Source: Azolla caroliniana (taxonomy: Eukaryota > Plantae > Polypodiophyta). Taken from it: 64,000 nucleotides of DNA. Shown here in pieces: positions 9,594 through 49,637 of this stretch. The stretch is from NCBI GenBank assembly GCA_043228905.1, contig JBHGNT010000004.1:6014001-6078000 (forward strand), read 5' to 3'. Under the pieces are notes generated by a model, which saw nothing but the letters and a program-made list of their open reading frames with translations, searched no databases and was not told the origin of the DNA. Made by a program: the position numbers and the translations under genes. Numbering within the stretch: the first letter of the stretch is position 1; each line of letters begins with the position of its first letter.

Positions 9594-9595
9594 TT

Positions 9596-20535: not shown

Positions 20536-20539
20536 TCGG

Positions 20540-23500
20540 GAGATTATATGAGAATCTATAAAACTATTTTCAAAAGACCTTCTACTATTGTGTGAATGTT
20601 TTGAATTGTTCATCACAAAAATTCTAAATGAGTCATCGTTTCAATAGGATACAAGTGTATGAAACTATTTTCAAAAGAACTTCTACTACCATGTGAATGT
20701 TTTGATTTGCTCATCTAATCGGGAGATTAGATGAAAATCTATGAAACTCTTTTCAAAAGACCTTCTACTACCATGTGAATGTTTTGAATTGTTCATCACT
20801 AAAATTCTAAATGAGTCATCGTTTCAATAGGATAGAAGTTTATGAAACTATTATTAAAAGAACTTCTACTACCATGTGAATGTTTTGATTTTTTCATCCA
20901 CAAAATTCTAAATGAGTCATAGTTACAAATAGAAGACGTAGTTTTATGGGTTTGTTAAGGATGGGGTGAGAGTGTCTCGAACTCTCGACCTTAGGATTTC
21001 TCGAAGCTATGAGACCTACTCTCTAACCGACTGTGCCACCACCACAATGATGAGTTCACTTTCTATATAACGTAAACGTGTTGATTAATTCATCACACAA
21101 ATTCGGAATGACTACTCTAAAAAATAAGACGTAATTTAATGGGTTTTGTTACGTAGGATAGAAATGTATGAAACTATTTTCGAAACAACTTCTACTACCA
21201 TGTGAATGTTTTGATTTGTTCATCACAAAAATTCTAAATGACTCATCTTTACATAGAGAAGGCGTTGTTTAATAATAGGTTTCTTAAGAATGGGGTGAGA
21301 TAGTCTCGACCTCTCGACCTCAGAATTTCTCGACGCTATGAGACCTACGCGCTAGCCAACTACGCCACCACCCCAATGGTGAGTGTAGTTTTATATAATG
21401 TAAATGTGTTGATTTATTCATCACAAAAATTCGGAATGACTAATCTAAAAAAGAGGACGCAATTTAATGGGTTTTCTTAAGTAGGATTAAAGTGTAGGAA
21501 ACTTTTTCGACACAACTTCTACTACCATGAGAATGTTTTGATTTGTCTATCACAAATATACTAAATGAATCATATTTACATACAGTCGTTTAATAATGGG
21601 TTTGTTAAGAATGGAGCGAGACAATGTTGAACTCCCGACCTAAGAATTTCTCAACGCGATGAAACCTACACGCTCGCCAACTGCACTGCGCCACCACCCC
21701 ATTCATGGGTGTGATTTCATTATACTTAATACAAACTAATTGTGTGATATAAGTGTTTCAACATAGACAAGAGTGTATCAAACTATTTTTGAGATTCAGA
21801 GTTTCTACTATCATATAAATGTTTTAATTTCTTCACCATGAAAATTCGACATGAGGAATTTAAAAAAGAAGACGTAGTTTAATGGATTTGTTAAGTCCTA
21901 TAGAAGTGTATAATACTATTTTTCAAAACAATTTCTAATATCATGTGAATGTTTTGCATTGCTCATCACACAAATTCTAAATGAGCCATCTAACACAAAA
22001 GAGTTGGTTTAATAGGTTTATTATGAACGGGGAGAGACGAGCTTAAATTCTCAACCTTAGTATTTCTCGAAGCTACGAGACCTACGCGATAACCAAAAGT
22101 AACACCATCCCATTCATGAGTGTCATTTGTACTATCATGTAAATGTTAAGAATAGGATTGGTCAATCCGGTTGACCGACTTCTTCCAATAGGAAGGTAAA
22201 ATACCTAACCTTATTGAGAATGAGGTGAGAGAGGTGACGCTCGAACTCTATGTCAAGATATCTCAAAGCTATGAGACCTACGTGCTAGCCAACTGCGCCA
22301 CCACCCCAGTGATTAGTGCACTTTCTATATAATGTAAATGTGTTGATTTATTCATCACATAAATTCGAAATGACTAATCTTAAAAAGAGGACGTAATTTA
22401 ATGGGTTTTGTTAAGTAGGATTCAAGTATATGAAACTTTCTTAAAACAACTTCTACTACCATGAGAATGTTTTGATTTGTATATCACAAATATACTAAAT
22501 GAGTCATTGTTTAATTAGGATAGAAGTGTATGAAACTATTTTCGAAATAACTTCTACTAACCATGTGAAGGTTTTGATTTGTTCATCATAAAAATTCTAA
22601 ATGAGTCATGTTTACATAGAGAAGACGTAGTTTAATAAGGGGTTTCTTAAGACTGGGGAGAGAGAGTCTCGAACTTTCAACCTCGGGATTTCTTGAAGCT
22701 ATGAGACCTACGCGCTAGTGAACTGCGCCACCACTCTAGTAATAAGTACACTTTCTATGTGATGCAAACGTTTGATTTATTCATCACACAAATCATGTAA
22801 ACGTGTTGATTTATTCAAATAATTTCTGCTACCATGAGAATGTTTTGATTTGTATATCACAAATATACTAAATGAGTCCTATTTACATACAATAGTTTAA
22901 TAGTGGGTTTGTTAAGAATGGCGTGAGAGAATGTCGAGCTCCTAACCTAAGGATTTCTCAACGGTATGAGACCTACGCGCTCGCCAACTGCGCCAGCACC
23001 CCATTGATGAGTGTGATTTCATCTTACTTGAGAAAAACTAATTGTGTGATATAAGTGTTTCAACATAAAGAAGAGGAGTGTATGAAACTATTTTTAATAT
23101 TCAGAGTTTCTACTATCCTATAAATGTTTTAAGTTCTTCATCAGGCAAATTCGAAATGAGGAATTTAAAAGAGAAGACATAGTTTAATGGCTTTGTTAAG
23201 TGGTGTAGAAGTGTAGAATACTATTTTTCAAAAGAATTTCTACTATCATGTGAATGTTTTGCATTGTTCATCACACAAATTCGAAATGAGCCATTGAACA
23301 CAAAAGATGTAGTTGACTGGCTTTGTTATGAATGGAGTGAGTTGGTCTCAAAATCTCAACCTCACGATTTGTTGAAGCTATGAGACCTAAGAGCATGCAA
23401 AAAGTACCACCACCCAATTCATGGTTGTCATTTATACTATCACGTAAATGTTAAGAATAGGGTTTGTCGATCCGATTGACGAACTTTTCCTAATAGGAAG

Positions 23501-23591
23501 GAAAAAACACCTAACATTATTGAGAATGGGGTGAGAGAGGTGAGGCTCGAACTCTCAACCTCAAGATATCTTGGAGCTATGAGACCTACGT
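20540..23591 (-). repeat. tRNA-Met(e)-derived satellite, block 1 (9 tRNA-like copies)
   Basis: Copies at ~20962, 21291, 21612, 22028, 22221, 22654, 22919, 23333, 23527, separated by the recurring spacer ttctactaccatgtgaatgttttgatttgttcatcac. Confidence 0.92.
21291..21374 (-). pseudogene. Degenerate intron-containing tRNA-Met(CAU) copy
   Basis: GGGGTGGTGGCGTAGTTGGCTAGCGCGTAGGTCTCATA...TCACCCCA on minus; B box mutated. Confidence 0.85.
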
Positions 23592-24177
23592 TGTCGTGAA
23601 GCTTTTCGGCTATAGTGTGAAACCGGGGTGGAATGGGCAAGTTGGTGGTGTGCAACATGTGCACATGTATAGGAGGAAAACGGTGTATAATATAAGGGGG
23701 AGTATTTATCCCACATTGTAATGTCCCTCCCTCCTTGGGCTATAAAAGGAAGGGAGGGGTCTCTTATGAAGGTTGTTGCCTATTTTGATTGAGAGAGGTA
23801 TACCACTTAGGTCGAGGGGTTCTATTCGGTTTTAGGGTTTCTTCTAGGGTTTTCTTCTTGGGTTTCTTTAGGGTTTCTATGCTTCTTTGCTTACTTATCT
23901 GGTTAGGGTTTTCTTGTACTCATTTTTGGGGGTGCAGCCTATGCGGCCTTGGTGGTAATATTTGTGAACTCTTAATATAGTATGTTGATGTTTCTTGTCT
24001 TGTGGGTGTATCTTGCCTCCATCTATTCTACTCTATGTTTATGTGTCATTCTTCCTCTTCTCCTCTTGAGCTAATCTTTCATTTTGGGGCTTATTCCTTC
24101 TCCTCTACTCCCTAGTCCAAGACCCCCGTGGTCCCGCCTCGGATCCTACACGCGCTCGCGGAATATCGCAACATCTT

Positions 24178-24195
24178 TGGTGAACCCGACGTGAA
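24178..24195 (+). promoter_or_regulatory. Primer binding site, tRNA-Trp
   Basis: TGGTGAACCCGACGTGAA, complementary to the plant tRNA-Trp 3' end as recalled. Confidence 0.85.
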
Positions 24196-24217
24196 GAGGC
24201 GGCAAGGGAGGACAGAG

Positions 24218-24766
24218 ATGGAAGAAGAAGACTTCGACTTTGAGGAGATGATGGCGAAGATTGTGATGGATGCCCAACGGAAGAAGGCGAGGCAAGATGT
24301 GGCTCAACAAGCCGTCGAGAGGGTGGTTGATCGAGTCAGCCGATTCAACGGGGACGATGTCCCGAGGTTCTTGGAAGCGTACAATGCCGAGATGACGAAG
24401 AGGAGCGTGGACGAAATGATGCGGCTAGAATATTTTCGTGGAGTAGCGGCCATATCGGTGCACAAAGAGGTCAAGGAGCTTCAAGAAGCTCACAAGTTGT
24501 GGGAGTCCTTTGAGGGAGCTCTATTGGAGGCATACGGATATGCGAAACCGGAGTGGGTATGCCGGCAACCCGATGGGGAGCGGTTGGCAACAACATGGCC
24601 CGCGAGCGGCGGAGAAGAGAGAGCGGTGAGCGGCTACACACTATTGCCGGAGGAGAGCTCGACACGCGATCAACCGGAGGAGTACGACATAGAGGCATTG
24701 GTATGGGAGGCATGTGAGAGCGTGAAGGCGAAGTTCGAAGCCGAAGAAAGGCTTATTATGGAGTGA
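24218..24766 (+). CDS. Truncated Gag-like ORF
   Basis: RFNGDDVPRFLEAYNAEM...WESFEGALLEAYG resembles Gag at 59393 (WFGVKDAMSYLEAYRAEM...WEEFEGRLLEKYG). Confidence 0.7.
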   Translation: MEEEDFDFEEMMAKIVMDAQRKKARQDVAQQAVERVVDRVSRFNGDDVPRFLEAYNAEMTKRSVDEMMRLEYFRGVAAISVHKEVKELQEAHKLWESFEGALLEAYGYAKPEWVCRQPDGERLATTWPASGGEERAVSGYTLLPEESSTRDQPEEYDIEALVWEACESVKAKFEAEERLIME

Positions 24767-27383
24767 GCCCGGAGACGATCAGAGGATGTGGAGGAAGAAG
24801 CCTCCCTATGCGTGGACGATGGGGCCTATGCGGAGGCCGGAAGAGCGTTCAACAATGATGACGTGGGAGAGGGTGCAGAGCAAGCGACCCTCTCGTCTTA
24901 CGGAAAAGGGATGGCCATGGATGAGGCCGGTGACTACGAAGCGGGGAGCGCCACTTCGAGAGTGGGCGGAGGATTCGGGACACGGTGGCCCGAAACATCA
25001 AGCGGGGAGGGGATGAGCGGTGGTGCGGGACCTTACCCACACCGATTCTAGAGACTCCGGCATCCGGTCCGAGAGCCAATGTGAGGCCTAGAGTGACGAA
25101 CGATGGCAGGGGCAAGGCGGGCAAGCAAGACAACGGCAAGGAGATCGAGTAAGAGGAGGCAAGCATAATCGAGGCTTCCGCAATCGGATACGGGCTAGCC
25201 ACGAACAACGACGTCCGGATGGAGGTGGCTACGGACATAACGAGTGGCGGTGCCAGGATCTTACCCGCACCGGTTCTAGAGACTCTGGCATCCGGCCCGA
25301 AAGCTAGTATGAGACCTAGACTGACGGACGGTGGCGGCGGCAAGGCGGGTGACCGAAACGAAAAGGAGGATGTGAGGCCCGGAATGGGCATATACGAAAG
25401 GACCGAAGGGGAGGCCGAGAGTGGCAACAAGGAGAGCGTCGGGAACCGACCCGACCGAAAGGCGAACCGGGAAAAGAATGAAGCGGGGGCCGGTCAACCG
25501 GGTCCGAACCGAAGAAGAGCCGGCAAGACCGGAAGTGTTCAGCAGAACCCTTACTGGCCGGATACGATTATGGAAGGAAGCCGACCAAACTGGAACATGA
25601 TCGGTCGGTACCAAACATGGCAAGGGCCAAGCCGGCATGATTGGAGATCGGGGAGGACGAGTCGCAACACATGGTGGGAGCCGGTGAGCACGAGAAGGAG
25701 GCCAAGCAGGCATGATGACTACGGTTTCGTGAAAGACCGGAAATGGGCGGGACCCTCCACACCTATTCTAGAGACTTCAGCGGTTGCGGATCAACGTAAG
25801 ACTGGAGAAGCGGCGGGTGGCGGCGAGGAGTCGGTTACCGGAGTGGGTATCCGGTATGAAATAATGGACGAGCGGGGCCAAGACAGCAAGCCCGAGTCGG
25901 AACATGCTACGGCAACAAAGGAAGAAGAGGCCGACACAGAGGTTGGGTCTACGACGAGTGAAGGGCGTAAAACGGAGCATGCACCACGGCCGGCGAAGGG
26001 CCAAGAAGCAAACATGCACCCGAAAGAGTGGCAATGACTGACCGGCAATGGCGGACCGATCGAGCCTTTGAGAGGCAAGCACGCGGCGAGAGACGGAGCG
26101 GTAAGGTGTTGTGATCGACGGATGAACGGCGGGAGAGAAGGATGGTGCGCGGAGAACAAAGGGGTACACGCCGGGAAGAGAAAGCGCGGCGTCCCGGAGG
26201 ACATGTGAGGCCAAGAGGGCGCAAGTCGAGGTGAAGTGGTACCAAGAGCCGTGAAGGACACCGACATGGAGGTCGGTATAATGGTACGCTCTACCGCGAG
26301 AGAGCACGACAAGCAAGGGAGAAGGGAGGAGCACGTAATCCGAAGATCGAGCGCGCATTCGGGGGATGACAATGACACATGGAGAGAGCCTGTGGAAGGC
26401 AAGCATAGGATAGAAGGAGTCGGCACGAGGTATTTGGGAGGAGGAGACGGTCGAACCGAAGGAGGGACACACGCAGTATGAGGTACGCGGAATCCGGCGT
26501 GCGATCGGAGTGACCGAGGACCCGATCAGAGGACATATGCGGCAGACGAAAGAGGGGTGATCAGATCGGCAACGGGGTCCGGGAGGACCGATCGGGGTGG
26601 AAGGCGCGAACGTCGGATATGGTGAATCGGATGGTGCCGACAGTCGGGGACGTACGACGGATTGGGAGGCTACAACGGCTCGTGTGGAAGGGACGGGCAT
26701 GCTCGAAGTGGAAGACAAAGTCGAGCAAGGTCAACAAGGATGACCGCGGAGGCGAGTTCCTGGAAGGAGGACAGGGGCGCGGTCCGGAAGAAGATGGATA
26801 GGGGCCGATAAGGAGCCGGCGAGATGGTCAGGTGTCGGTAAGGCGGAGGACCCGGTTGATCACCGTCGCCGAAATCTCTCACCCTTTTCCTTTCTTGGCA
26901 CATACCGGTGGATGTGCGGTTTGGTGGGGGTGGATGTCGTGAATATTTCCGGCTATAGTGTCAAACCGGGGTGGAATGGGCAAGTCAGTGGTGTGCAACA
27001 TGTGTACATGTATAGTAGGAAAACGGTGTATAATATAAGGGGGAGTATTTATCCCACATTGTAATGTCCCTTAGGGTTTTCTTCTTGGGTTTCTTTAGGG
27101 TTTCTATGTTTCTTTGCTTACTTATCCGGTTAGGGTTTTCTTGTAGTCGTTTTTGGGGGTGCGGCCTATGCGGCCTTGGTGTTAATATAACATGTTGATG
27201 TTTCTTGTATTGTGGGTGTATCTTGCCTCCATCTATTCTACTCTATGTTTATCTGTCATTCTTCCTCTTCTCCTCTTGAGCTAATCTTCCATTTTGGGTC
27301 TTATTCCTTCTCCTCTACTCCCTAGTCCAAGACCCCCGTGGTCCCGCCTCGGATCCTACACACGCTCGCGGAATATCGCGACA

Positions 27384-30300
27384 ACGCGCTAGCCAATTGC
27401 GCCACCACCCCAATGATTGGCACACTTTCTATATGTAAATGTGTTGATTTTTTCATCACACAAATTCGGAATGACTGATCTAAAAAAGAGGACGTAATTT
27501 AATGGGTTTTGTTAAGTAGGATTTTAGTGTATCAAAACAACTTCTACTACCATGATAATGTTTTGATTTGTATATCACAAATATACTAAATGAGTCATCG
27601 TTTTAGTATGATAGAAGTGTATGAAACTATTTTCAAAAGAACTTCTACTACCATGTGAATGTTTTGATTTGTTTTTCACAAAAATTCTAAATGAGTCATC
27701 GTTACAAATAGAAGACATAATTTTATAGGTTTGTTAAGGATGGGGTGAGAGCGTATCAAACTCTTGTTATGACCTTAGGATTTCTCGCAACTATGATACC
27801 TACGTGCGAGCCAACTGAGCCACCACCCAATGATAACTTCAATTCCTATAAAATGTAAACGTGTTGATTTACTCATCACACAAATTCGGAATGACTAATC
27901 TAAAAAAGAGGACGTAATTTAATGTGTTTTGTTAAGTAGGATTAAAGTGTATGAAACTTTTTCAAAACAACTTCTACTACCATGAGAATGTTTTGTTTTG
28001 TATATCACAAATATACTAAATGAGTCATATTTACATACAATATTTTAATAATGGGTTTGTTAAGAATGGGGTGAGAGAATGTCGAACTCCCAACCTAAGG
28101 ATTTCTTAACGCTAGCTTAACAGAAATTAATTGTGTAATATAAGTGTTTCAACATAAACAAGTGGAGTGTATCAAAGTATTTTCCATATTCAGAATTTCT
28201 ACTATCCTATAAATGTTTTAATTTCTTTATCAGGCAAATTCAAAATGAGGAATTTAAAAGAGAAGACATAGTTTAATGACTTTGTTAAGTGGTGTAAAAG
28301 TGTATAATACTATTTTTCAAAAGAATTTCTACTATCATGTGAATGTTTTGCATTGTTCATCACAGAAATTCTAAATGAGCCTTCTAACACAGAAGATGTG
28401 GTTGATTGGGTTTGTTATGAATGGAGTGAGACGGTCTCAAAATCTTAATCTCATGATTTGTCGAAGCTATCTGACCTACACATTAGCCAAAAGTACCACC
28501 ACCCAATTCATGAGTGTCATTTGTACTATCATGTAAATGTTGAGAATAGGGTTCATCGATCCGGTCGAACGTTTCCTAATAGGAAGGAAAAAACAACTAA
28601 AATTATTGAGAATGGTGTGAGAAAGGCTCGAACTCTCAACCTCAAGATATCTTGAAGCTGTGAGACCTACGCACTAGCCAATTGCGCCACCACCCCATTG
28701 ATGAGGGTTAATTCTACTGTAATTAAATATTTTGATTTATTCGTCACACAAATTCAAAACGAGTAATCTAAAAACGAAAACACAATTTATTGGTTTTATT
28801 AAGTAGGATAGAAGTGTATGAACCTATTTTCAAAAGACCTTCTACTGCCATGTGAATGTTTTGAATTGTTCATCACAAAAATTCTAAATGAGTTATCGTT
28901 TCATTAGGATAGAAGTGTATGAAACTATTTTCAAAAGAAATTCTACTACCATGTGAATGGTTTGATTTGTTCATCACAAAAATTCGAAAATGAGTCATCG
29001 TTACAAATAGAAGACGGAGTTTTATGGGTATGTTAAGGATGGGGTGAGAGAGTCTTGAAGTCCTGACCTGAAGATTTCTCAAAGCTATAAGACGTACGCA
29101 CTAGCTAATTGCACCACCACTACAATGATGAGTGTAGTTTTACTATTATATAAATGTTTTGATTTATTCATCACACAAATTATTGGTCTAAAAAAGTGTA
29201 CGAAACTATTTTGAAAAGAACTTCTACTACCATGTGAATGTTTTGATTTGTTCATCATAAAAGTTCTAAAAGAGTCATCTTTACATACAGAAGACGTAGT
29301 TTTATGGGTTTGTTAAGAATGGGGTGAGAGAGTCTTGAAGTCTTGACCTCAAGATTTCTCGAAGCTATGAGACGTACACGCTAGCCAACAGCGCGACAAC
29401 GTGATCGATGCGTGTGGCTTTTACAATTTAAATAATTTTAGTTTCTACATGTGAATGTTTTGCCTTCTTCATTACAAAATTTTTAAATGAGTCATCTTTA
29501 CATACAGAAGAGGTAGTTTAATAAATGGTTTTTTAAGAATAGGTTGAGAGAGTCTCAAACTCTTGACCTCAGGATTTCTCAAAGCTATGAGACATACGTG
29601 CTTTCTCAAAATCGCGACCCCATTGATGAATGTGCTTTCCATATAATATAAATGTGTCAATTTATTCATCACACAATTCGGAATGACTAATCTAAAAAAG
29701 AAGACGTAGTTTAACGAAGTTTATGAAACTATTTTTAAATGAACTTCCACTACATGTGCCTGTTTTGATTTGTTCATCACAAAAATTCTATATGAGTCAT
29801 GATTACATACAAAAGACATAGTTTACTAATGGGCGTCACAATATTTCTCGAAGCTATGAGACCTACGCACTAGCCAACTACGTCGTCATGCCATTGATGA
29901 GTGTAGTTTTACTATTATATAAATGTTTTGATTTATTCATCACACAAATTCGAAATTACTAATCTAAAAAAGAAGATGTAATTTAATGGGTGTGTGAAAT
30001 AAGATAGAAGTGTGCAACTATTTTGAAAAGAATTTCTACTACCATTTGAATGTTTTGATTTGTTGATCATAAAAGTTCTAAATGAGTTATCTTTACATAC
30101 AGAAGCCATAGTTTTATGGGTTTGTTAAGAATGGGGTGAAAGAGTTTTGAAGTCCTGACTTGTAGATTTGTCGAAGCTATGAGACGTACGTGCTAGCCAA
30201 CTGCGCCACCACCCCATTGATGAGGATACTTTCTATCTCATGTAAATGTTTTGATTTATTCATCACACATATTCGGAATGACTAATCTAAAGAAGAAGAC

Positions 30301-31235
30301 GTAATTTAATGGGTTTTTTTAAGTTTATGAAACTATTTTCAAAACAACTTCTACTACCATGTGCATGTTATGATTTGTTCTTCACAAATATTCTAAATGA
30401 GTCAACTTTAAAATGTTTTTGTTAAGAATGGGGTGAGAGAGTCCCGAACTCCTGACCTCGAAGCTATGAGACCTACACGCTAGCAAACAACTCCATAACC
30501 CAATCGATGGTTGTACTTTTTAGAATTTTGATATTTATAGTTTATCACACAAATTTAAAATGAGTAATCTAAAATAGAAAATATAGTAGAATGGGTTTGT
30601 TAAGTGGGATAGAAGTGTATAAAAACTTTTTTTCAAAAGAGCTTCTACTATCGTGTGAATGTTTTGCTTTGTGTATCACACAAATTCCAAATCAATCATC
30701 TTAAATAGAAGACGTACTTTAATGGGTTTGTTAACAATGGGGTGGGGGAGTCTCAAACTCTCCACTTCAGGATTTCTTGAAGCTATGGGACCTACAGATT
30801 ATCCAACTGTGCTAGCAGTCCATGGATGATTATGGTTTCTACTTAACATATAATAATAGTGTGGGAGAAGTGTATAAAACCATTATTTGACAATCACAAT
30901 TTCTATAATCATGTGAATGTTTTGCTATGTTCATCGCACAAATTCGAAATGAGTAATCTAAAAATGAAGACGTAATTTAATGGGTTAAGTAGGATAGAAG
31001 TGTATGAAACTATTTTCAAAAGAACTTCTACTACCATGTGAATGTTTTGATTTGTTCATCACAAAAATTCTGAATGAGTCATCTTTACAAACAAAAGACC
31101 TAGTTTAATGGGTTTGTTAAGAATGGGGTGAGAGAGTCTCAAACTCTTGACCTCAAGATTTCTCGAAGTTATGAGGCCTATACTATAGCGAACAATGCCA
31201 CAACCTGATTGATGGGTGTGCTTTTTACAATTTTC
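27384..31235 (-). repeat. tRNA-Met(e)-derived satellite, block 2 (~12 copies, more diverged)
   Basis: Copies near 27741, 28067, 28422, 28613, 29040, 29320, 29540, 29830, 30132, 30429, 30738, 31124. Confidence 0.9.
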
Positions 31236-31277
31236 GATTTCGTGACTCCGTTACATGCAAGAATCCACCGAATGCCT

Positions 31278-31449
31278 TGTTGGGACATCGGTCCCTCCAG
31301 ATGGGATCCTGTGAGAACCGGAAGAGAAGACATATTTGTGAATATGTTTTTGAGTAAGCCCATTGAGGCTATATTTGTAGATAGCCCTAAGTTCATATAA
31401 GTTAGTCAAGGTGGTGTTTTTTCTTTTGTAATGAAAGCCATTATTTACG

Positions 31450-31492
<43 letters not shown>

Positions 31493-31767
31493 TGAGTGAG
31501 ATACAGAGTGATACTCTGTTGTAACCGCCGGTTGGCGAAGATACAGAGCTCGAGGTCGTTGCCTCTGAGGCTCTAATTGTACCTTTCTCCTATAGTGATA
31601 GTTGGAGTCTGTGGGCTCCCGTAGTTTTTCCCTCTTTGGGTTTTCCACATAAACATCATGTGTATTTCCTTGTGTACTCTCCATTTCCCATTTCTGTGTT
31701 TCATTCTCTTTGAAGTGATTCACGACTGGGTTGTGGCCGAGCAATATTCTGCGCGTTATTCTCTACA
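31278..31767 (+). mobile_element. Solo LTR (490 bp) related to copia B
   Basis: TGTTGGGA...CTACA; TSD TGCCT at 31273-31277 and 31768-31772; shares gaggctatatttgtagatagccc and tagtgatagttggagtct with the B LTR. Confidence 0.9.
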
Positions 31768-34328: not shown

Positions 34329-34504
34329 GACTCGAGCACTTTGGAAGTATTTTAGATTTTATGATAAGAAATATAATCATGAAATATTAAAGGATGTTCT
34401 AGAATAATCTAGAATGGTTCAACTCCCGGCAATGGAACCACAACTAGGTACAGACTCTACATATCTAGGATGGTCCAACCAAATGGCTCCTATTTTGGCC
34501 GGAC

Positions 34505-37124: not shown

Positions 37125-37165
<41 letters not shown>

Positions 37166-37198
37166 TCTCTTATCCTCCTTTGTAACCATCTTGTAACC

Positions 37199-38344: not shown

Positions 38345-41300
38345 GTTCGGCCAAAATAGGAGCCATTTGGTTGGACAACCCTAGATATGTACAATGTAGT
38401 GTGGGTTCCATTTCTTCCAAGCATGTTAGTAGAGTCTTTTCAGCCCTAGTACAAGTTAGGACACCCAGTTGTCAACTTCAAGTCCAAGCCCTCTTAGATA
38501 CTGGAGCCAATTCTTGTTTCATAGATAGAGATTTTGCCCAAAAACACCAAATATCCTTGCATACACTTCCTTGTCCAGTTTCCGTAGTAGTGATTGATGG
38601 ACGCCCCATAGCTTCCGGGAAGATATTTGAAGAGTCTGAGCCAATACACATACTCTTGGGTGATTTAGGATGTGTAGTTTCCTTTAACATAATCCGTAGT
38701 CCTGAGCATCCAATTGTCCTCGGTTTGCCATGGTTCGAGCTACATAACCCTAGAATCGATTGGAGGAAGCAAGAAATTAGGTGCCCTTTAGCAGAAAATA
38801 TCATTGTCAAGGATCGAACTCGGGATTATCCTCCCAAAGTATATAGTTCTACCGATGCACCATATCCTTCTCATCAAATTTCAGCCATCACATTGCAACA
38901 ATTGCGCCAAGTGGGAGGCAAGGAGGACCTTTTCTTATTTGTAGTATCAATGACACCTTCTAGTGTCACTCAAGGGAATTTAGACATCCAAATTCCCAAA
39001 AAATATCAAGACTATGCGGATGTTTTCGACAAAGTCAAAGCTAGTGTTCTTCCAAAGCATCGGCCGTACGACTGTCCTATTGATCTCCAACCAAGAAAAG
39101 AGCAATCGTGGGGTCCGATTTACAATTTATCACCCACTAAGCTTGAGGTTCTTCGAGAATACATCGAGGAAAATCTTGCACATGGGTTTATTCGACATTC
39201 AAAGTCTCCAGCTGGTGCTCCTATCTTTTTTGTGAAGAAAAAGGACGGCTCCCTTCGTTTGGTCGTGGACTATCGAGGCTTAAATAAAGTCACCATAAGG
39301 AATAGGTATGCTTTACCTTTAATCTCCAATCTCTTAGAACGCATTGGTGGGGCAAAGCATTTTACCAAATTTGATCTAAGGGGTGCATATAATCTTGTTC
39401 GAATTCGTCCGAGAGATGAGTGGAAAACAGCATTTCGTACTCGGTATGGTCATTTCGAGTATACAATCATGCCTTTCGGGCTCACAAATGCACCTGCAGT
39501 ATTCCAACATATGGCAAATGACATCTTCCAGGATTTCTTGGATATTTTTCTAATCATCTACCTAGATGATCTATTGATTTACTCTAAAACACAAGGGGAG
39601 CATGATATACATCTGCGGCAAGTACTTGAACGCCTAAGGAAGTATGGTCTTTATGCCAAACTTGAGAAATGAAGTTTTGATTGCAAATAAGTCGAATTTT
39701 TGGGATACACTATTTCATCCCAAGGTGTTTTCATGGACCCGGCAAAAGTCCAAACAATATTGGAATGGAAACCCCCATGCTCAGTTCGGGATGTCCAGTG
39801 TTTCCTCGGATTTGCGAACTTCTATCGCAAATTCATACATAATTATTCAAGCATTGTGTTGCCCCTTACTCAACTCACCAAGAAAAATCAAGCATTTTTT
39901 TGGAGTATCGAAGCGGACAAGGCTTTTACGCAACTGAAAGAGGCATTCACATAAGCACCCATCCTAGCACATATTGATCCTGAAAAGCCATTTACTATTG
40001 AGGCGGATGCATCAGACTTTGCATTGGGGAGTATCCTATCGCAACTAGGCGAGGACGGGCAGACACATCCAGTCGCGTTTCACTAGAGAAAATTTACTGT
40101 TTCGGAGATAAACTATGAGGTGCATGACAAGGAGTTACTAGCTGTGGTCGACTCATTCGAGCAATGGCGTCATTTTCTAGAAGGATCACCTCATCAGATT
40201 ATCATTTATAGTTATCACAAAAATCTCACATATTTTCAAACAACTTGAGTATTAAATAGACGACAAGCTCGGTGGGCCCAATTTCTGACACATTTCGATT
40301 TCAAGATCATTTTTCGCCCCGGAAAACAACAAGGGAAAGCAAATGCTCTGTCTCGGCGTTCGTATCTAGCACTTCGACCTGGAGATCCGACCTTTGACAA
40401 TCAAAAGCAAACTCTCCTCGGGCCATCAAAGCTACAGGTAACAACAATTTATGCCACGCCACTTGATTCTACCCTTCTTGACACTATTCAGCAACAACTT
40501 CATTCGGATGATTTTGCTAAGGATGTCTTAGCCCACTGTGGTTCAAGTCGTCCATCTTGCTCCACATTGCCAGGGTCATCTCAACATTATCAGGACTTCA
40601 AGTGGCAGGATGGCTTACTCTTCTACAAGAATCTCCTTTACGTACCCGACGGATCACCCCGACTTCAAGTGTTGGAACATTGTCATGATGCCCCCATGGC
40701 TGGACATTTTGGTATTTCCAAGACCATTGAGCATGAAGTGTTTCGCCATCATGGTCTCCCGAATGATATTATTAGCGATCGAGGTCCTCAATTTATCTCA
40801 CACTTTTGGAAGCACCTATGGGCAGGTCTCAAAATCTCTTGCAAACTCTCTTTAGCTTATCATCCACAAATTGACGGACAAACAGAGCGCACAAATCAAA
40901 CGCTCGAGCAATATCTTCGATGTTTCATTAGTTATCAACAAGATGATTGGAGTAATATTTTACATCTTGCTGAGTTTGCCTACAACAACACGGTCCACTC
41001 TTCTACCAAAGTTACACCTTTCTTTGCCTACACCGGCAACCACCCTCGATGGTGTATACTGGATCTTCCCGAGGTGTCACGAAACCCTAGTGCGGCGCAT
41101 CACCTCCACCGACTACAACAAATCCAGTTCAAGTTATCGTCACATCTTCAGAAAGCGCAAGCACACCATAAGACCAATGCCAATCGACATCGTCTTAAGT
41201 CTCCGTTTAAGGTTGGTGACCGTGTATGGTTGCTTCGTCGTCACATCAAGACTACCCGACCGTGTGCTAAGCTTGACTATCAATGCTTAGGTCCTTTTGT

Positions 41301-41703
41301 CATCACGGCGTAGATTAATGATGCAACATTTCGTCTTAACCTTCCTACACATATGCGGCTTCACCCTGTCTTTCATAACTCTCTTTTGGAACCTTGCCGC
41401 ACCTCTTTAATTCCTAATCATGTTGTGCCACCACCGCCTTCTGTACAACTTGTGGACGGCCCCGAATACGAGGTAGCTGCTATTCTTGATTCTAAGATTG
41501 TGCGCAATAAACTTTATTGTCTAGTTGATTGGCTTGGTTATCCTCCGAGTGATCGCACTTGGGAACCCATCAATAACGTGTGTAATGCTGAAGCTCTGGT
41601 CAACGACTTCCATCGTCACTATCCAAACAAGCCCGGCCCAACAATGTTAACACCGACTTCCACTCGGCGTTCTCGAAGGAGGGATAGTGTAATGAACACA
41701 TGA
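38335..41703 (+). pseudogene. pol (protease, RT, RNase H, integrase, chromodomain) with multiple stops and an integrase deletion
   Basis: ORFs 38371-39672, 39700-39954, 40567-41313, 41353-41703. Confidence 0.9.
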
Positions 41704-44700
41704 CCATTATGGCGTCACCCGGACTTGAACCTCGAACCTTCTAATCCATACTTGAAAACCTCAACCATGAAGATAGCTTATTGTTATATGAAACAATAAA
41801 AGCTACTTTTTGTATTACATTGATTATTGTAAAAACTCTAGATTATTCTAGAATGTCCTAGAGCATTCTAGGTCTTGAACATTCTAGAACATTCTAGAAA
41901 TCTCTAAGCTATTCTATAGGAACCTATAAATAAGGGCATACATGTATTCTGAAATCAATTCGAATCAACACAATTCTTTAGCTCTCATTACATATCTTGT
42001 ATCCATTCTCTTTCTTTCTCTATCTTATACATCCATTCTTCTCTTAGTATTTGGTTCCTTTCTTCTCGTGTTCTCTAATATCCTTCTTCCATCACTATAT
42101 CTTTTATCCTTGGTTCTAACAAATTGCACAATGCGTTATGGGCTTACCACACTACGGTTAAGACCAGCATCAATTCCATGCCTTTTCGGTTGTCATTCGG
42201 ATTAGAAGTTGTACTGTTGATCGAATTTCAGGTTCCGAGCTTACGCGTTCTGATTTTGGAAAGACTCCCCGAAACCAAGTCCGAACAAAAAAAACTTCAA
42301 TAACTACACGAACTCGGAGAAGTTCGGTTGGCCAGTCTAAGCCAGCTTGAGCAAGGTCAACACCGACGGAAAGAGTTTGTCAATCAAAACCAGAAAGGAA
42401 ACGAGCAATTATTCGAAATCGGCAAGGCAGTCCTCGTTTTCCAAACTCAACTCGGCTTGATGCCAGGAAAGCTCCGGTTTCGATGGACGGGTTCTTTCTG
42501 GATTATCGATGAGTTTAACAGAACTTTTTAACTCAGCACATTAGTAGGAGAAATTATGCCGAAATGGGTCAATGGCTTGCGATTGAAGCCATACATCGGA
42601 CATACACCGCCCAACCCCTTTCTTGACAAAACGCACGACGGTCGGCTCGAGGAAGGTGACACGCTAGCTCATAGGGGCACTTCACCCCAATTACGATAAC
42701 TACCCCACCTACCCGAGTATGTATATTAAATGTATATTAGGTGTGCCTACATGGAAAAGAAAAGAAAAACCCACCAAGTTATTATTTAAAGAGCATTCAT
42801 GCAGAGCGAGAAAAGCAAGTACAAACCGTTCCCAACACGTGGCATTAAACCCTAATAATGGTAGACAAGATTCTAAATCTAGGGCACAAGGCCATGGCTC
42901 GGGAAACAAAGCATACACAAAAAGAGGCACACCACATGCAACGAACCCATTGGCGCATAGAAGCACAAAACTCTCACGTCTTCTCTCTCAGCCCTTCGCC
43001 TTCTTGAATCTTTGCACAAAGCCATCCATCTCCACTCTCTCCCCGAACTATAGTCACCACCATGCCGATCGAGGTATCCATGGAGGTCCGCACCTGGTTG
43101 GGCAGGCACGGCCTAGGAGGATACCTCAAGGTTGCCGATGCACTGCCTCACCCAGAAGCACAAGAAATCAGCCTGCATTTACACCTGGATACTATCACCA
43201 ATGATAAGATTCGGTCGGTATTAGGCCTCAACTAGGGCGGGCACCAAGACATCGAGGTTCTGCCCCAACATGTCCTTGAGGCACATTTCGGGGAGTAATC
43301 CATCTCGGCGAAGGCCTGTCGCACACAGTGCGGACATAATGAGTTCTTCGAAGACCTGTCCAAGTTTCTCTTTGAAATCGCCTGTGTCCACGCCAACACC
43401 TACGGCATGACGAAGAAGAAGGCCAGAATCATCATCATCGCCCACATAGGCAATAGACTCGATTGGGAATCCTTCACAAGGGAGGGTATCCGCGTCGGCC
43501 TTGCAAAGTAAGAAAGAAGTTAATTCCTGCCTTAGCACGCTACTTGTTTATGCTGTACCCACCCCATTCCATTACCGCTCTCAAGTTTGCACCCATGTCT
43601 GAAGAGCATGTGGATAGGGCAATGGTGCTACTACCATTACAATGTTTTGATTTGTACATCACAAATATACTAAATGAGTCATATTTACATATACTATTTT
43701 AATAATGGGTTTGTTAAGAATGGGGTGAGAGAATGTCGAACTCCGGACCCAAGGATTTCTCCATGCTATGAGACCTACACGCTCGCCAACTACGCCACCA
43801 ACCCATTGATGATTGTGATTTCATCTTACTTGATAGAAACTAATTGTATGATATAAGTGTTTCAACATAAACAAGAGGAGTGTATCAAACTATATTTGAG
43901 ATTCAGAGTTTTACTATCCTATAAATGTTTTAATTTCTTTACCACGACAATTTGAAATGAGGAATTTAAAAAAGAAGAAGTAGTTTAATGGGTTTGTTAA
44001 AGGTATAGAACTGTATAATACTATTTGTCAAAAGAATTTCTACTATCATGTGAATGTTTTGCATTGTTCATCACAGAAATTCTAAATGAGCCATCTCCCA
44101 CATAAGAGGTGGTTTAACGGGTTTATTATGAACGGGGAGAGATGGCTTAAATTCTCAACCTTAGTATTTGTCGAAGCTATGAGACGTACACCCTAACAAA
44201 AAGTACAACCACCCAATTCATGAGTGTCATTTGTATTGTCATGTAAATGTTAAGAATAGGATTGGTCAATATGGTTGATCGACTTCTCCCAATAGGAAGC
44301 CAAAATACATAACCATAATGAGAATGGGGTGAGAAAGGCTCAAACTCTCAACCTCAACATATCTCGAAGCTATGAGACCTACACGCTAGCCAACTACGCC
44401 ACCACCCCAAGGATGAGTCCATTTTCTATATAGTGTAAATGTCATCATTTATTCATCATACTAATTCGGAATGACTAATCTAAAAAAGAGGACTTAATTT
44501 AATGAGTTTTGTTAAGTAGGATTAAAGCATATGAAACTTTTTCAAAACAACTTCTACTACCATGACAATGTTTTTATTTACATATCACAAATATACTAGA
44601 TGAGTCATCATTTTAATAGGATAGAAGTGTATGAAACAGCTTTCGAAATAATTTCTATTACCATGTGAAGGTTTTGATTTGTTCATCACAAAAATTATAA

Positions 44701-44753
44701 ACGAGTCATCTTTACATAGAGAAGACGTAGTTTAATAATGGGTTTCTTTATAG

Positions 44754-44837
44754 TGGGGTGAGAGAGTCTCGAACTCTCGACCTCAGGATTTCTCGAAGCT
44801 ATGAAACCTACGCACTAGCCAACTGCGCCACCACCCC
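44754..44837 (-). tRNA. tRNA-Met(CAU), elongator type with 10-nt intron; near-intact and possibly functional
   Basis: GGGGTGGTGGCGCAGTTGGCTAGTGCGTAGGTTTCATA-gcttcgagaa-ATCCTGAGGTCGAGAGTTCGAGACTCTCTCACCCCA; changes are a D-stem G-U wobble and U32. Confidence 0.7.
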
Positions 44838-46038
44838 AATGACAATTTCACTTTCTATATAATGTAAACGTGTTGATTTATTCATCACACAAATAATGTA
44901 AACGTGTTGATCTATATAATGTAAACGTATCGATTTATTCAAAGCAGCTTCTGCTACCATAAGAATGTTTTCATTTGTATAACACAAATATACAAAATGA
45001 GTCCTATTTACAGTTTAATAGTGAGTTTGTTAAGAATGGGGTGAGAGAATGTCGAACTCCTGACCTAAGGATTTTTCAACGCTATGAGACCTAGACGCTC
45101 GCCAACTACGCCACCAACCCATTGATGACTGTGATTTCATCTTACTTGATACAAACTAATTGTATGATAAGAGGAGTGTATGAAACTATTTTTGAGATTC
45201 AGAGTTTTACTATGCTATAAATGTTTTAATTTCTTTCCCACAACAATTCAAAGTAAGGAATTTAAAGAAGAAGACGTAGTTCAATGGGTTTGCTAAAGGT
45301 ATAGAACTGTATAATACTATTTTTCAAAAGAATTTCGACTATCATGTGAATGTTTTGCATTGTTCATCACAAAAATTCTAAATGAGCCATTTCCCACAGA
45401 AGAGGTGGTTTAACAGGTTTATTATGAACGGGGAGAGCGGGTTTAAAAGTATTTGTCGAAGCTATGAGACCTACGCGCTAACAAAAAGTACAACTGTCCA
45501 ATTCATGAATGTCATTTCTACTATCATGTTAATGTTACGAATAGATTTGGTCAATATGGTTGACTGACTTCTCCCAATTGGAAGCTAAATTACTTAACCT
45601 TATTGAGAATGAGGTGAGAGAGGCTCAAACTCTCGACCTCAGCATATCTCGAAGCTATGAGACCTACGCGCCACCCAATTATGCCACCACTCCAATGATG
45701 AGTGCACTTTCTATATAGCGTAAATGTGTTCATTTATTCATCACACTAATTCGGAAGGACTAATCCAAAAAACAGGGCGTAATTTAATGAGTTTTGTTAA
45801 GTAGTATTAAAGCATATGAAACCTTTTCAAAACAACTTCTACTACCATGACAATGTTTTTATTTGCATATCACAAATATACTAAATGAGTCATCATATCA
45901 ATATGATAAAAGTGTATGAAACTTTGTTCGAAATAATTTCTACTACCATGTGAAGGTTTTGATTTGTTCATCACAAAAATTATAAACGAGTCATCTTTAC
46001 ATAGAGAAGACATAGTTTAATAATGGGTTTCTTAATAG

Positions 46039-46122
46039 TGGGGTGAGAGAGTCTCGAACTCTCGACCTCAAGATTTCTCAAAGCTATGAGACCTACGCGC
46101 TAGCCAACTGCGCCACCACCCC
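46039..46122 (-). tRNA. tRNA-Met(CAU) with intron, near-intact (anticodon-stem wobble)
   Basis: A box, B box, CAT anticodon and acceptor stem intact; ATCTTG in place of ATCCTG. Confidence 0.6.
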
Positions 46123-49100
46123 AATGACAATTGCACTTTCTATATAATTCAATGTGTTGATTTATTTATCACACAAATCATGTAAACGTATTGATCTATA
46201 TAATGTAAACGTATCGATTCATTCAAAGCAACTTCTGCTACCATAAGAATATTTTGATTTGTATAACACAAATATACTAAATGACTCCTATTTACATACA
46301 TCAGTTTAATATTGAGTTTGTTAAGAATGGGGTGAGAGAATGTCGAACTCATGACCTAAGGATTTCTGAACGCTATGAGACCTACACGCTCGCCAACTTT
46401 GCCACCAACCCTGTAAACATATCGATTCATTCAAAGCAACTTCTGCTACCATAAGAATATTTTGATTTGTATAACACAAATATACTAAATGACTCCTATT
46501 TACATACATCAGTTTAATATTGAGTTTGTTAAGAATGCGGTGAGAGAATATCGAACTCGTTACCTAAGGATTTCTCAACACTATGAGACCTAAACGCTCG
46601 CCAACATTGCCACCAACCCATTGATGAGTGTGATTTCATCTTACTTGACAGGAACTAAGTGTATGATATAAGTGTTTTAACATAAACAAGAGGAGTGTAT
46701 GAAACTATTTTTGAGATTTAGAGTTTTACTATCCTCTAAATGTTTTAATTTCTTTACGACGACAATTCGAAATGAGGAATTTAAAAAAGAAGACGTACTT
46801 TAATAGGTTTGTTAAGTGGTATAGAACTGTAAAATACTATTTTTCAAAAGAATTTCTACTATCATGTGAATGTTTTGCATTGTTCATCACAGAAATTCTA
46901 AACGAGCCATCTAACACAGAACATGTGGTTTAATGGGTTTATCATGAACCGGGAGAGCGGGTTTAAATTCTCAACCTTAGTATTTCTCGAAGCTATGAGA
47001 CCTACGCCCTACCAAAAAGTACAACCACCCAATTCATGAGTGTCATTTGTACTATGATGTAAATGTTAAGAATAGGATTGGTTAATATGATTGACTAACT
47101 TCTCCCAATAGGAAGGTAAAATACTTAAACTTATTGAGAATGGGATGAGAGAGACTCAAACTCTCAACCTCAGAATATCTCTGAGCTATGAGACCTACGC
47201 ACTAGCCAAGTACACCACAACCCCAGTGATGAGTGCACTTTCAATATAGTGTAAATGTGTTCATTTATTTATCAAACTAATTCGGAATCACTTATCGAAA
47301 AAAGAGGACGTAATTTAATGAGTTTTGTTAAGTAGGATTAAAGCATATGAAACTTTTTCACAACAAATTCTACTACCATGAGAATGTTTTTGTATATCAC
47401 AAATATACTAAATGAGTCATCATTTCAATAGGATAGAAGTGTATGAAACAGCTTTCGAAATAATTTCTATAACCATGTGAAGGTTTTGATTTGTTCATCA
47501 CAAAAATTATAAGTGATTCATCTTTACATAGAGAAGACATACTTTATTAACGGGTTTCTTAATAGTGGGCTGAGAGAGTTTCGAACTCTCGACCTCATGA
47601 TTTCTCAAAGCTATGAGACCTACGTGCTAGCCAAATACACCACCACCCGAGTGATGAGTGTAGTTTCTATATACTATAAATGTGTTCATTTATTCATTAT
47701 ACTTATTCGGAATGACTAATCTAAAAAAGAGGACGTAATTTAATGAGTTTTGTTATCTAGGATTAAAGCATATGAAACTTTTTCAAAACAACTTCTACTA
47801 CCATGAGAATGTTTTTATTTGTATATCACAAATATACTAAATGAGTCATCATTTCAATAGTATAGAATTGTATGAAATTATTTTCAAAACAATTTCTACT
47901 ACCATGTGAAGGTTTTGATTTGTTCATCACAAAAATTATAAACGAGTCATCTTTACATAGAGAAGACGTAGTTTATTAATGGGTTTCTTAATAGTGGGGT
48001 TAGAGAGTCTCGAACTCTCGACCTCATGATTTCTAGAAGCTATAAGACCTACGCGCTAGGCAACTGCGCCACCACCCCAATGACGATTTCACTTTCTATA
48101 TAATGTAAACGTGTTGATTTATACATCACATAAATAATGTAAACGTGTTGATCTATATAATGTAAACGTATCGATTGATTCAAAGCAGCTTCTGGTACCA
48201 TAAGAATGTTTTGATTTGTATAACACAAATATACTAAATGAGTCCTATTTGCATATATCAGTTTAATAGTGAGTTTGTTAAGAATGGGGTGAGGGAATGT
48301 CGAACTCCTGACCTAAGGATTTCTCAACGCTATGAGACATACACGCTTGCCAACTACGCCACCAACCCATTGATGAGTGCGATTTCATCTTACTTGACAG
48401 GAACTAATTGTATGATATAAGTGTTTCAACATAAACAAGAGTAGTGTATCAAACTATTTTTGAGATTCAGAGTGTTACTATCCTATAAATGTTTTAATTT
48501 CTTCACCACGAGAATTCGAAATGAGCAATTTAAAAAAGAAGATGTAGTTTAATGGGTTTGTTAAGTGGTGGTATAGAACTATATAATACTATTTTTCAAA
48601 AAGAATTTCTACTATCATGTGAAATTTTTGCATTGTTCATCACAAAAGTTCTAAATGAGCTATCTAACACAGAAGAGGTGGTTTAATGGGTTGATTATGA
48701 ACGGGGAGAGCGGGTTTAAATTCTCAACCTTAGTATTTGTCGAAGCTATGAGACCTATGAGCTAACCAAAAGTACCACCACCCCATTCATGAGTGTCATT
48801 TATACTATCATGTAAATGTTAAGAATAGGATTGGTCAATATGGTCAACCGACTTCTCCCAATAGGAAGCTAAAATACCTAACCTTAATGAGAATGGGGTG
48901 AGAGAGGCTCGACCTAAGTATATCTCGAAGCTATGAGACGTACGCGCTAGCCAACTACGCCACCACCCCAATGATGAGTACACTTTCTATATAATGTAAA
49001 TGTGCTCATTTATTCATCACACAAATTCGGAATTACTAATCTAAAAAAGAGGATGTAATTTAATGAGTTTTGTTAAGTAGGATTAAAGCGTATGAAAAAT

Positions 49101-49311
49101 TTTCAAAACTTCTACTACCATGAGTATGTCTTTATTTGTATATCACAAATATACTAAATGAGTCATCGTTTCAATAGGATAGAAGTGTATGAACCTATTT
49201 TCGAAATAATTTCTAGTACCATGTGAAGGTTTTTATTTGTTCATCACAAAAATTCTAAACGAGTCATCTTTACATAGAGAAGACGTAGTTTAGTAATGGG
49301 TTTCTTAAGAG

Positions 49312-49395
49312 TGGGGTGAGAGAGTCTCGAACTCTCGACCTCAGGATTTCTCAAAGCTATGAGACCTACAAGCTAGCCAACTGCGCCACCACCCC
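49312..49395 (-). pseudogene. tRNA-Met(CAU) with intron, D-stem mutated
   Basis: Matches the satellite consensus exons except GCTT for GCGC in the D stem. Confidence 0.75.
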
Positions 49396-49637
49396 AATGA
49401 TGATTGCATGTTCTATATAATGTAAACGTGTTGATTTATTCATCACATAAATAATGTAAACGTGTTGATCTATATGATGTAAACGTGTTGATTTATTTAA
49501 AGCAACTTCTGCTACCATAAGAATGTTTTGATTTGTATAACAAAAATATACCAAATAACACAAATATACTAAATGTTTGGATTTGTATAAGAATGTTTTG
49601 ATTTGTTAAGAATTGTGTGAGAGAATGTCGAACTCCC

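What the first reader, a model, noticed from the sequence alone, without database searches (positions are those of the whole stretch)
20540..49637. Satellite built from ~40 intron-containing tRNA-Met(e) genes
Seen: every ~200-430 bp the minus strand carries GGGGTGGTGGCGCAGTTGGCTAGCGCGTAGGTCTCATA-gcttcgagaa-ATCCTGAGGTCGAGAGTTCGAGACTCTCTCACCCCA or a derivative. All copies are co-oriented and sit in spacers that are themselves repeated. Known: this is the plant elongator tRNA-Met with its intron after position 37. The retained intron, lack of CCA/poly(A)/TSDs and co-amplified flanks indicate DNA-level tandem amplification rather than a SINE. Inference: a tRNA gene turned into a satellite that is heavily invaded by LTR elements, possibly centromeric/pericentromeric or a Pol III/TFIIIC chromatin domain. 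Tandem tRNA clusters are known (e.g. Arabidopsis Ser-Tyr); I am not aware of a degenerate eMet higher-order satellite, but I cannot search for one.
Basis: partly seen in the sequence, partly recalled or inferred. Interest (0 to 1): 0.85.

Follow-up and report, generated by a model that had tools for sequence, protein, structure and literature searches.

The report
Decaying tandem methionine-tRNA gene array
Forty head-to-tail copies of a plant methionine tRNA gene, nearly all of them damaged, lie in three blocks cut apart by jumping genes; this is likely an old, silenced, low-copy gene cluster decaying in place rather than a centromere repeat.

Summary
In detail: 40 co-oriented, intron-bearing tRNA-Met(e) copies lie on the minus strand, 185-430 bp apart. 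They fill only 12.9 of the 29 kb flagged; the rest is LTR-element DNA. The anatomy is clear: ~300-bp monomers (tRNA plus ~100-bp subrepeats) and seven copies of a ~1.3-kb four-unit higher-order repeat (A-B-C-D), with classes forming position-specific clades. No copy equals the canonical plant gene; 2 of 40 pass simple intactness criteria, and 7 of 38 have a near terminator. Since amplification, tRNA parts have diverged at the spacer rate, with CG/CHG transition excess, and LTR insertions are younger than the repeat. Contig depth in public runs puts the family at roughly tens of copies, against hundreds to thousands for the LTRs, and single units are 98-99% shared across studies. The centromeric-satellite idea is therefore not supported; DNA-level tandem amplification is. 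One hint of past function: class A's tRNA stayed canonical while its spacer changed. A second genome (L075) holds a similar one-intact-plus-three-decayed eMet repeat with unrelated spacers. The scan had not noted this elsewhere. Verdict: new member of a known kind (plant tandem tDNA cluster), mostly pseudogenes.

The parts
20536..23591 (-). Array block 1: 8 tRNA-Met(e) copies plus the 3' half of a split copy; two monomers, one full A-B-C-D repeat and part of another; ends in four ~100-bp subrepeats
23592..27383 (+). 3.8-kb LTR element without pol, inserted inside a B-class tRNA copy; LTRs 23592-24173 and 26935-27383 (K2P 0.048), 4-bp target duplication with one mismatch, tRNA primer site after the 5' LTR
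27384..31240 (-). Array block 2, continuous with block 1 once the insert is removed: 5' half of the split copy, 12 further copies; 29300-31240 is an older monomeric stretch (~300-bp units, 13-17 exon changes in most)
31241..43620 (.). Nest of LTR-element DNA between blocks 2 and 3: LTR-like piece, Ty3 pol fragment, a chromodomain-bearing Ty3 element 32114-36174 (5-bp target duplication, LTR K2P 0.018) and a second Ty3 element 36921-42121; the two array ends are not collinear, so array DNA was likely lost here
43621..49637 (-). Array block 3: 18 copies plus a T-arm remnant; four A-B-C-D repeats of ~1.3 kb with two local monomer duplications
46039..46122 (-). Best-preserved copy (class A): 2 exon changes, all stems, CAT, A and B boxes, intron pair kept; first T4 run 58 nt downstream
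44754..44837 (-). Second near-intact class A copy: 3 exon changes including C32T
20559..20840 (-). Example of the ~100-bp AT-rich spacer subrepeat; 72 profile hits in the window, all minus strand and all inside the three blocks
49638..50077 (-). LTR of a Copia-like element that cuts a D-class copy and ends block 3; element class read by eye from the purine tract and RNase H end (motifs recalled)

Best explanation
This is a tandem array of 40 intron-bearing tRNA-Met(e) copies, almost all damaged, that likely arose by local DNA duplication of one gene and is now likely methylated, silent and decaying in place. Shown: the copies, their spacers, the four-unit higher-order repeat, the LTR insertions and the damage. 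Inferred order: (1) one eMet gene with its flank was duplicated, giving ~300-bp monomers of tRNA plus ~100-bp subrepeats, most carrying a C60A mark; (2) four neighbouring units (A near-canonical, B lightly changed, C and D already dead) were copied as a ~1.3-kb block at least seven times, most likely by unequal crossing-over; (3) homogenisation stopped, and all units then took mutations at the spacer rate with an excess of CG/CHG transitions, as expected for methylated heterochromatin; (4) LTR elements inserted afterwards and deletions removed parts. Class A was probably a working gene up to step 2. Today the cell's eMet tRNA likely comes from dispersed genes, and the array has no sequence-specific job, though one or two A copies could still be transcribed.
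For: Position-specific clades: B 100/100, C 100/96, D 100/99, A 95/75; monomers unresolved (38 rows, split copy and remnant left out; labels set by position beforehand). No copy canonical, 2 of 40 pass stems+CAT+A box+B box. T4 within 20 nt: 7 of 38 copies against 87 of 93 distinct plant eMet flanks. tRNA versus spacer divergence from class majority, 25 copies: AT 60/960 vs 224/4714, CHH 81/802 vs 202/1700, CHG 15/62 vs 23/96, CG 41/250 vs 30/138, all p above 0.05. Stem pairs lost as in context-matched simulation in all 4 classes (P 0.11-0.66, 26 copies). Transitions per site against the canonical gene, 36 copies: CG 0.26, CHG 0.21, CHH 0.05, AT 0.03. Repeat segments K2P 0.085-0.159 (15 pairs) against LTR pairs 0.008-0.048 (4 elements). 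Low contig depth and 98-99% identical single units in other studies. Loose ends at the tRNA edges show other eMet genes with unrelated flanks in the same runs. Clustered tDNAs are methylated and silent in Arabidopsis (PMC7544208, abstract and section 16).
Against: Class A copies carry 30 private changes against 53 expected from pooled spacer rates, although this is not significant against their own spacers (p 0.15-0.56). 33 of 40 copies keep CAT. The same one-intact-plus-three-decayed layout recurs in L075, which could mean a maintained role. Methylation and silence are inferred from mutation pattern only. Contig depth is not a true copy number (the tool says so), members under 80% identity are missed, and no whole genome was available, so further arrays are not excluded. 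Non-angiosperm tDNAs have T-runs less often (PMC13437025 section 7), which weakens the terminator argument, though 10 of 11 matches with the same intron ending have a T4 run close by (the exception is L075).
Confidence: 0.75

Rival explanations
1. A live but repressed tRNA gene cluster or Pol III/TFIIIC chromatin element: the A copies are working or reserve genes, switched on in some tissues, and the decayed copies act as spacers or binding sites.
For: Class A majority differs from the canonical gene at 1 of 74 exon sites while its spacer differs from the monomer majority at 12 of 122 (Fisher p 0.004-0.020; C and D not significant, p 0.42 and 0.17; post hoc). Two A copies keep all stems and both boxes and have a TATA at -24. 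L075 has the same layout with a 51.4-bit copy. Tissue-specific reactivation of Arabidopsis clusters is cited in PMC13578239 (passages).
Against: After amplification A copies lose stem pairs at the simulated neutral rate (-11 observed, -10.6 expected); 4 of 6 A copies fail the intactness test; none has a terminator within 20 nt. The A-stem signal speaks for function in the past, not now.
Confidence: 0.12
2. A centromeric or pericentromeric satellite derived from a tRNA gene, present as large arrays on the chromosomes.
For: Higher-order structure with older monomeric stretches beside it, AT-rich (GC 0.34), gene-free LTR-dense surroundings including a chromodomain element.
Against: In run X1, bins wholly in the array have summed depth 66-592 and the spacer unique to the repeat 366-922, where zero-difference contigs have depth 37-53 and LTR-element bins 3,808-184,146; the window alone holds 7 copies of that spacer. 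Units are 8.5-16% apart and are shared one-to-one across studies, unlike an actively homogenised satellite. Plant tDNAs are depleted at centromeres (PMC13437025 section 9); in the moss P. patens centromeres are Bryco Copia elements (10.1101/2023.05.19.541548, passages). No other of 35 noted windows of this genome fitted 'satellite centromere tandem' or a tRNA array (weak, unchecked notes).
Confidence: 0.05
3. A tRNA-derived SINE or other non-autonomous element that was tandemly amplified (SINE-derived satellite).
For: Unit is a tRNA head plus an unrelated AT-rich body without a near terminator; SINE-derived tandem repeats of modest copy number exist in reptiles (PMC10702118, abstract).
Against: Intron kept with its anticodon-intron pair in most copies, no CCA or tail; all 72 body subrepeats lie inside the array and none is dispersed in the other 51 kb; depth shows no high-copy dispersed family; upstream flanks are shared between copies.
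Confidence: 0.05
4. A decayed array of dicistronic tRNA-snoRNA genes, with the ~100-bp subrepeat being a former box C/D snoRNA.
For: No near terminator; 41 box-C-like motifs in spacers; weak repeated Rfam hits to snoR64 (best 27.4 bits, E 0.062).
Against: All hits are far below gathering (45 bits for snoR64; snoR13 30 vs 60) and several AT-rich models hit the same repeat; only 5 of 41 box-C motifs have a CTGA 45-110 nt downstream, each inside the next tRNA copy; in A copies the T-run lies just before the box-C motif, so Pol III would stop short of it.
Confidence: 0.03

Closest known systems
Plant tandem tDNA homoclusters (Arabidopsis Pro, maize Ile and Ala, barley Gln) - PMC13437025 sections 10-11 and Table S3 sheet 1; PMC11700998 passages
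   Same: One isotype, co-oriented, compact, made by local duplication with shared flanks.
   Different: Those lists hold high-confidence genes; here 38 of 40 copies fail a simple intactness test. No Met(e) homocluster is listed in the 5-genes-in-5-kb table (Met(e) only in Chlamydomonas, sunflower and mouse mixed clusters; a 6-copy Met(i) homocluster in Marchantia).
Arabidopsis Ser-Tyr-Tyr cluster - PMC7544208 (abstract, section 16), PMC13437025 section 11
   Same: Block-wise duplication with position-specific clades; intron-bearing tDNAs; methylated and silent there, inferred so here.
   Different: SYY keeps intact genes and terminators and mixes two isotypes; here the block is four diverged copies of one gene, two of them dead before amplification, and terminators are mostly absent.
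Large tandem tRNA arrays of the bryophyte 'Cpu' - PMC12652284 passages (26, 18 and 14 identical genes; 2- and 3-gene units up to 37 times)
   Same: Large and higher-order tandem tDNA arrays in a non-seed plant.
   Different: Those are identical, young copies of Ile, Cys, Ala-Leu and Val-Glu-Phe; this one is old, diverged and Met(e). The paper's supplement could not be read, so Met clusters there are not excluded.
SINE-derived satellites of scaled reptiles - PMC10702118 (abstract)
   Same: Tandem repeats from a Pol III-type element, satellite-like but of limited copy number.
   Different: Source here is an intron-bearing tRNA gene with its flanks, with no sign of a dispersed SINE family.

Membership tests
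Plant nuclear tRNA-Met(e) gene derivative | Exon sequence of the plant elongator Met gene with CAT anticodon | tested here: met
   Best copies differ at 2-3 of 74 exon sites from the gene in 101 of 127 matches; CAT in 33 of 40
Plant nuclear tRNA-Met(e) gene derivative | Short intron after position 37 starting GCT, with a C32-intron G pair | tested here: met
   10-nt intron identical to that of L013; pair kept in most copies
Functional tDNA cluster | Most members are intact genes (stems, anticodon, A and B boxes) | tested here: not met
   2 of 40 pass; box patterns were my own, from recalled consensus
Functional tDNA cluster | T4 terminator close behind the gene | tested here: not met
   7 of 38 within 20 nt, 6 of them class B, against 87 of 93 elsewhere
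Functional tDNA cluster | Transcription by Pol III | not testable with these tools
   No RNA holder listed
Tandem tDNA homocluster (organisation only) | At least 5 co-located copies of one isotype within 5 kb, made by local duplication with shared flanks | tested here: met
   18 copies in 6 kb in block 3; position-specific clades; met only if pseudogenes are counted
Centromeric satellite | Very high copy number in long arrays | tested here: not met
   Depth about 1-20 times single-copy contigs, against about 70-3,500 times for LTR elements; indirect measure
Centromeric satellite | Higher-order repeat organisation | tested here: met
   Seven A-B-C-D blocks
Centromeric satellite | CENH3 binding, one array per chromosome | not testable with these tools
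   No whole genome held, no ChIP data
tRNA-derived SINE | Dispersed copies with a 3' tail and target duplications | tested here: not met
   No dispersed body copy in the window, no tail, low depth; genome-wide dispersal not tested directly
Dicistronic tRNA-snoRNA gene | Box C/D snoRNA between the tRNA and the T-run | tested here: not met
   No box D in spacers, Rfam hits below gathering, T-run precedes the box-C motif

The most novel reading that the evidence does not exclude
Non-seed plants repeatedly build ~1.2-1.3-kb higher-order repeats from one near-intact, A60-marked, terminator-less tRNA-Met(e) gene plus three dead copies (this window and L075), and these are a maintained class of Pol III/TFIIIC islands or read-through RNA sources inside LTR heterochromatin that standard tRNA annotation misses.
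Probability: 0.08. Interest if true: 0.65.

Novelty: new member of a known kind. Interest (0 to 1): 0.3.

Why it matters
It is a clean, dated example of the late life of a plant tRNA gene cluster: duplication, higher-order amplification, loss of homogenisation, methylation-type decay and LTR invasion, with per-copy markers (C60A, class-specific changes) that make expression directly testable. It also shows that surveys built on high-confidence tRNA calls miss such arrays (4 of 40 copies detected), and a second case turned up among only 124 eMet loci. It does not appear to bear on centromeres. If the A copies proved occupied by Pol III inside this heterochromatin, it would address the open question of whether plant tDNA clusters are functional hubs or by-products.

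Tried and rejected
Whole-genome mapping: no genome held. Expression: no RNA holder listed. Organism: two protein searches with LTR-element ORFs gave almost only unnamed metagenome proteins, so the lineage stays an inference (likely a non-seed land plant). Spacer homology with L075: rejected; downstream flank ranks 43 of 90 (local) and 6 of 90 (global; 10 of 300 shuffles as high), upstream 54 and 79 of 122, and the subrepeat profile has no hit under E 0.09 in 124 loci. snoRNA origin of the subrepeat: rejected. Selection on structure after amplification: not found; the one significant cell (class C, AT sites, higher in tRNA) is likely inflated by a deletion in copy 45500 under fixed-length slicing. 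tRNA-targeted LTR insertion: 2 of 5 array ends fall in tRNA sequence, which makes up about a quarter of the array; nothing to explain. Single-strand folding z-scores (-1.8 for the best copies, +0.3 to +0.5 for C and D, -1.6 for an authentic gene) add little. Small-share runs X5-X8 were not used as evidence of habitat. Look-ups in earlier findings by place, sequence and words found nothing on this array. The supplement of PMC12652284 could not be read.
Full report
Observation. A single-copy nhmmer search gave 41 minus-strand hits and 2 weak plus-strand self-overlaps. Two of the 41 are halves of one copy split by a 3.8-kb LTR element, so there are 40 loci: 21 in blocks 1 and 2 (20536-23591 and 27384-31240, continuous once the insert is removed) and 19 in block 3 (43621-49637, one of them only a T-arm remnant). 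A profile of all copies found no further minus-strand locus. The 5' half matches 11 times at up to 3 mismatches against 0.00 by chance. Spacing is 185-430 bp in 37 of 37 neighbouring pairs and array DNA totals 12,930 bp; the other 16 kb of the flagged span is LTR-element DNA. Standard tools see few copies: Rfam 4 at gathering score, ARAGORN 4, two as Met.

Identity. They hold 127 pattern matches, 101 with identical exons. I used the gene in L013, which has the same 10-nt intron as the window's majority, as reference. No window copy equals it; the best differ at 2 (46122) or 3 (44837, 49395, the split copy) of 74 exon sites, most at 7-21. 33 of 40 keep CAT, 16 an A box, 10 a B box (my patterns, from recalled consensus), and 2 of 40 pass stems, anticodon and both boxes together. 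A T4 run lies within 20 nt behind 87 of 93 distinct flanks in the loci but behind only 7 of 38 window copies, six of them class B; in class A it is 58-59 nt away. None of 38 is followed by CCA. Introns ending GAGAA occur in 11 of 127 matches and lack the GAGT motif reported for angiosperms (PMC11700998, passages); with the chromodomain Ty3 element whose best named relative is fungal, this suggests a non-seed land plant (inference; the link of such elements to mosses, lycophytes and ferns is recalled).

Anatomy. Spacers are built from a ~100-bp AT-rich subrepeat (72 profile hits, all minus strand, all inside the blocks). Units fall into classes repeating as A-B-C-D every ~1.3 kb. In a tree of tRNA plus 100 nt downstream (38 rows; split copy and remnant left out; labels assigned by position first), B, C and D are each one side of a strongly supported branch and A is 95/75; B's support is partly trivial because its spacer is unrelated; the 11 other units are unresolved monomers. 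There are four blocks in block 3 and three in blocks 1-2 (two of these have a monomer-like unit in the A position), with monomers at 29300-31240 and 20960-21374. Class majorities differ from the canonical exons at 1 (A, C60A), 3 (B), 10 (D) and 15 (C) sites, so C and D were likely dead before the block was amplified. B keeps C60 and a T4 at +19 and may be closest to the founding gene (inference).

Age and decay. Repeat segments differ by K2P 0.085-0.159 (15 pairs); LTR pairs of four elements differ by 0.008-0.048, the one inside the tRNA copy by 0.048, so insertion followed amplification. That element has a 4-bp target duplication with one mismatch (read from the flanks). Within classes (25 copies), tRNA and spacer diverge alike in each cytosine context: AT 0.062 vs 0.048, CHH 0.101 vs 0.119, CHG 0.242 vs 0.240, CG 0.164 vs 0.217, all p above 0.05. 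Stem pairs are lost as in context-matched simulations in all four classes (26 copies). Against the canonical gene (36 copies; four broken ones dropped), transitions per site are 0.26 at CG, 0.21 at CHG, 0.05 at CHH and 0.03 at A/T; copies are not independent, but the pattern fits CG/CHG methylation. Against this reading: class A has 30 private changes where pooled spacer rates predict 53, though not significantly fewer than its own spacers; and on the stem to class A the tRNA took 0-1 of 74 changes while the spacer took 12 of 122 (p 0.004-0.020, post hoc, one of three classes). I read this as function in the founding block, not today.

Copy number. No whole genome was held. Eight DNA runs hold the array; I laid 5 of the 8. 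In X1, contigs matching the array without a difference have depth 37-53; bins wholly in the array sum to 66-592 and LTR-element bins to 3,808-184,146. On one repeat unit, the spacer unique to B-C sums to 366-922, about 7-18 copies' worth, where the window holds 7. X2 and X3 show the same contrast. The tool warns that summed contig depth is no copy number, and members under 80% identity are missed, so this is an order-of-magnitude inference: tens of units, not a major satellite. Depth peaks on the tRNA parts with loose ends on both sides, showing other eMet genes with unrelated flanks. Single units are matched one-to-one in other studies: 564 bp with 7 differences and 551 bp with 8 in X2, 421 bp with 8 in X3, which carries another organism label. 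The array is therefore real and static; X1 may be the source sample and is not independent support.

A parallel case. 7 of 124 loci hold more than one eMet-like copy (two pairs are overlapping stretches of one contig each). L075 has a 1,209-bp period at 89% identity with four tRNA-derived units per period, one near-intact (51.4 bits) and three decayed, the same intron, A60 and no T4 until +64. Its spacers show no homology to the window's beyond background, so it is an independent origin or too old to trace. L048 has four copies about 170 bp apart and L124 two without terminators.

Rivals. The centromeric satellite fails on copy number and homogeneity; CENH3 is untested. A SINE origin fails on the intron, missing tail and lack of dispersed bodies. 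A tRNA-snoRNA dicistron was raised by weak snoR64 hits (27.4 bits, gathering 45) and rejected because spacers have no box D and the T-run precedes the box-C motif. A live or reserve cluster remains the main rival (0.12).

Literature. Seen: PMC13437025 (abstract, sections 7, 9, 10, 11; Table S3 part 1 of 23 and the first 30 of 131 'Met' places, covering all of the 5-in-5-kb summary; the 10-in-50-kb sheets not seen), PMC13578239, PMC12652284, PMC11700998, PMC8053127 and 10.1101/2023.05.19.541548 (passages), PMC7544208 (abstract, section 16), PMC10702118 (abstract). Tandem tDNA clusters, block duplication with position-specific clades, large bryophyte arrays and methylation-dependent silencing are all described. 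I found no description of a degenerate Met(e) homocluster or higher-order repeat in nine searches; the library lacks most subscription papers, and the unread supplement of PMC12652284 lists tandem clusters and could hold Met cases.

Verdict.

Noticed in passing
L075:930-3237: A second eMet higher-order repeat (1,209-bp period, one near-intact plus three decayed copies, same intron, A60, no near terminator) with spacers unrelated to the window's.
   Followed up: partly
L048:296-903; L124:276-796; L016/L017: Smaller eMet tandem clusters: four copies about 170 bp apart with graded decay; two copies 436 bp apart without terminators; copies about 1.15 kb apart with terminators.
   Followed up: partly
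L004, just downstream of the eMet gene: Looks by eye like a dicistronic tRNA-Met-snoRNA gene: box-C-like motif near +18, CTGA near +85, long T-run at +101. Not scanned against Rfam.
   Followed up: no
window 23592-27383: High-copy LTR element without pol (no Pfam hit on its two long ORFs; depth hundreds to thousands of times single copy), with 4-bp target duplication; same primer site as the element starting at 58682 (recalled as matching tRNA-Trp).
   Followed up: partly
window 18133-18826: Solo LTR with a 4-bp target duplication, 94% identical to the LTR at 58682-59375; it does not make the array part of one large element.
   Followed up: yes
window 4710-10422: Young, intact-looking Copia element: single 1,368-aa frame with gag, integrase and RT, LTR K2P 0.008, 5-bp target duplication, inserted in an older Ty3 element; 55-bp tandem repeats in its LTRs.
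   Followed up: partly
window 20520-20535: A Copia-like remnant ends at its purine tract and array DNA follows where the 3' LTR should be, so a deletion likely joined them (read by eye).
   Followed up: no
window 32114-36174 and 36921-42121: Two related Ty3 elements, one with a chromodomain integrase, nested in opposite orientations in a third Ty3 fragment; best named relative in the search is fungal (43% identity).
   Followed up: partly
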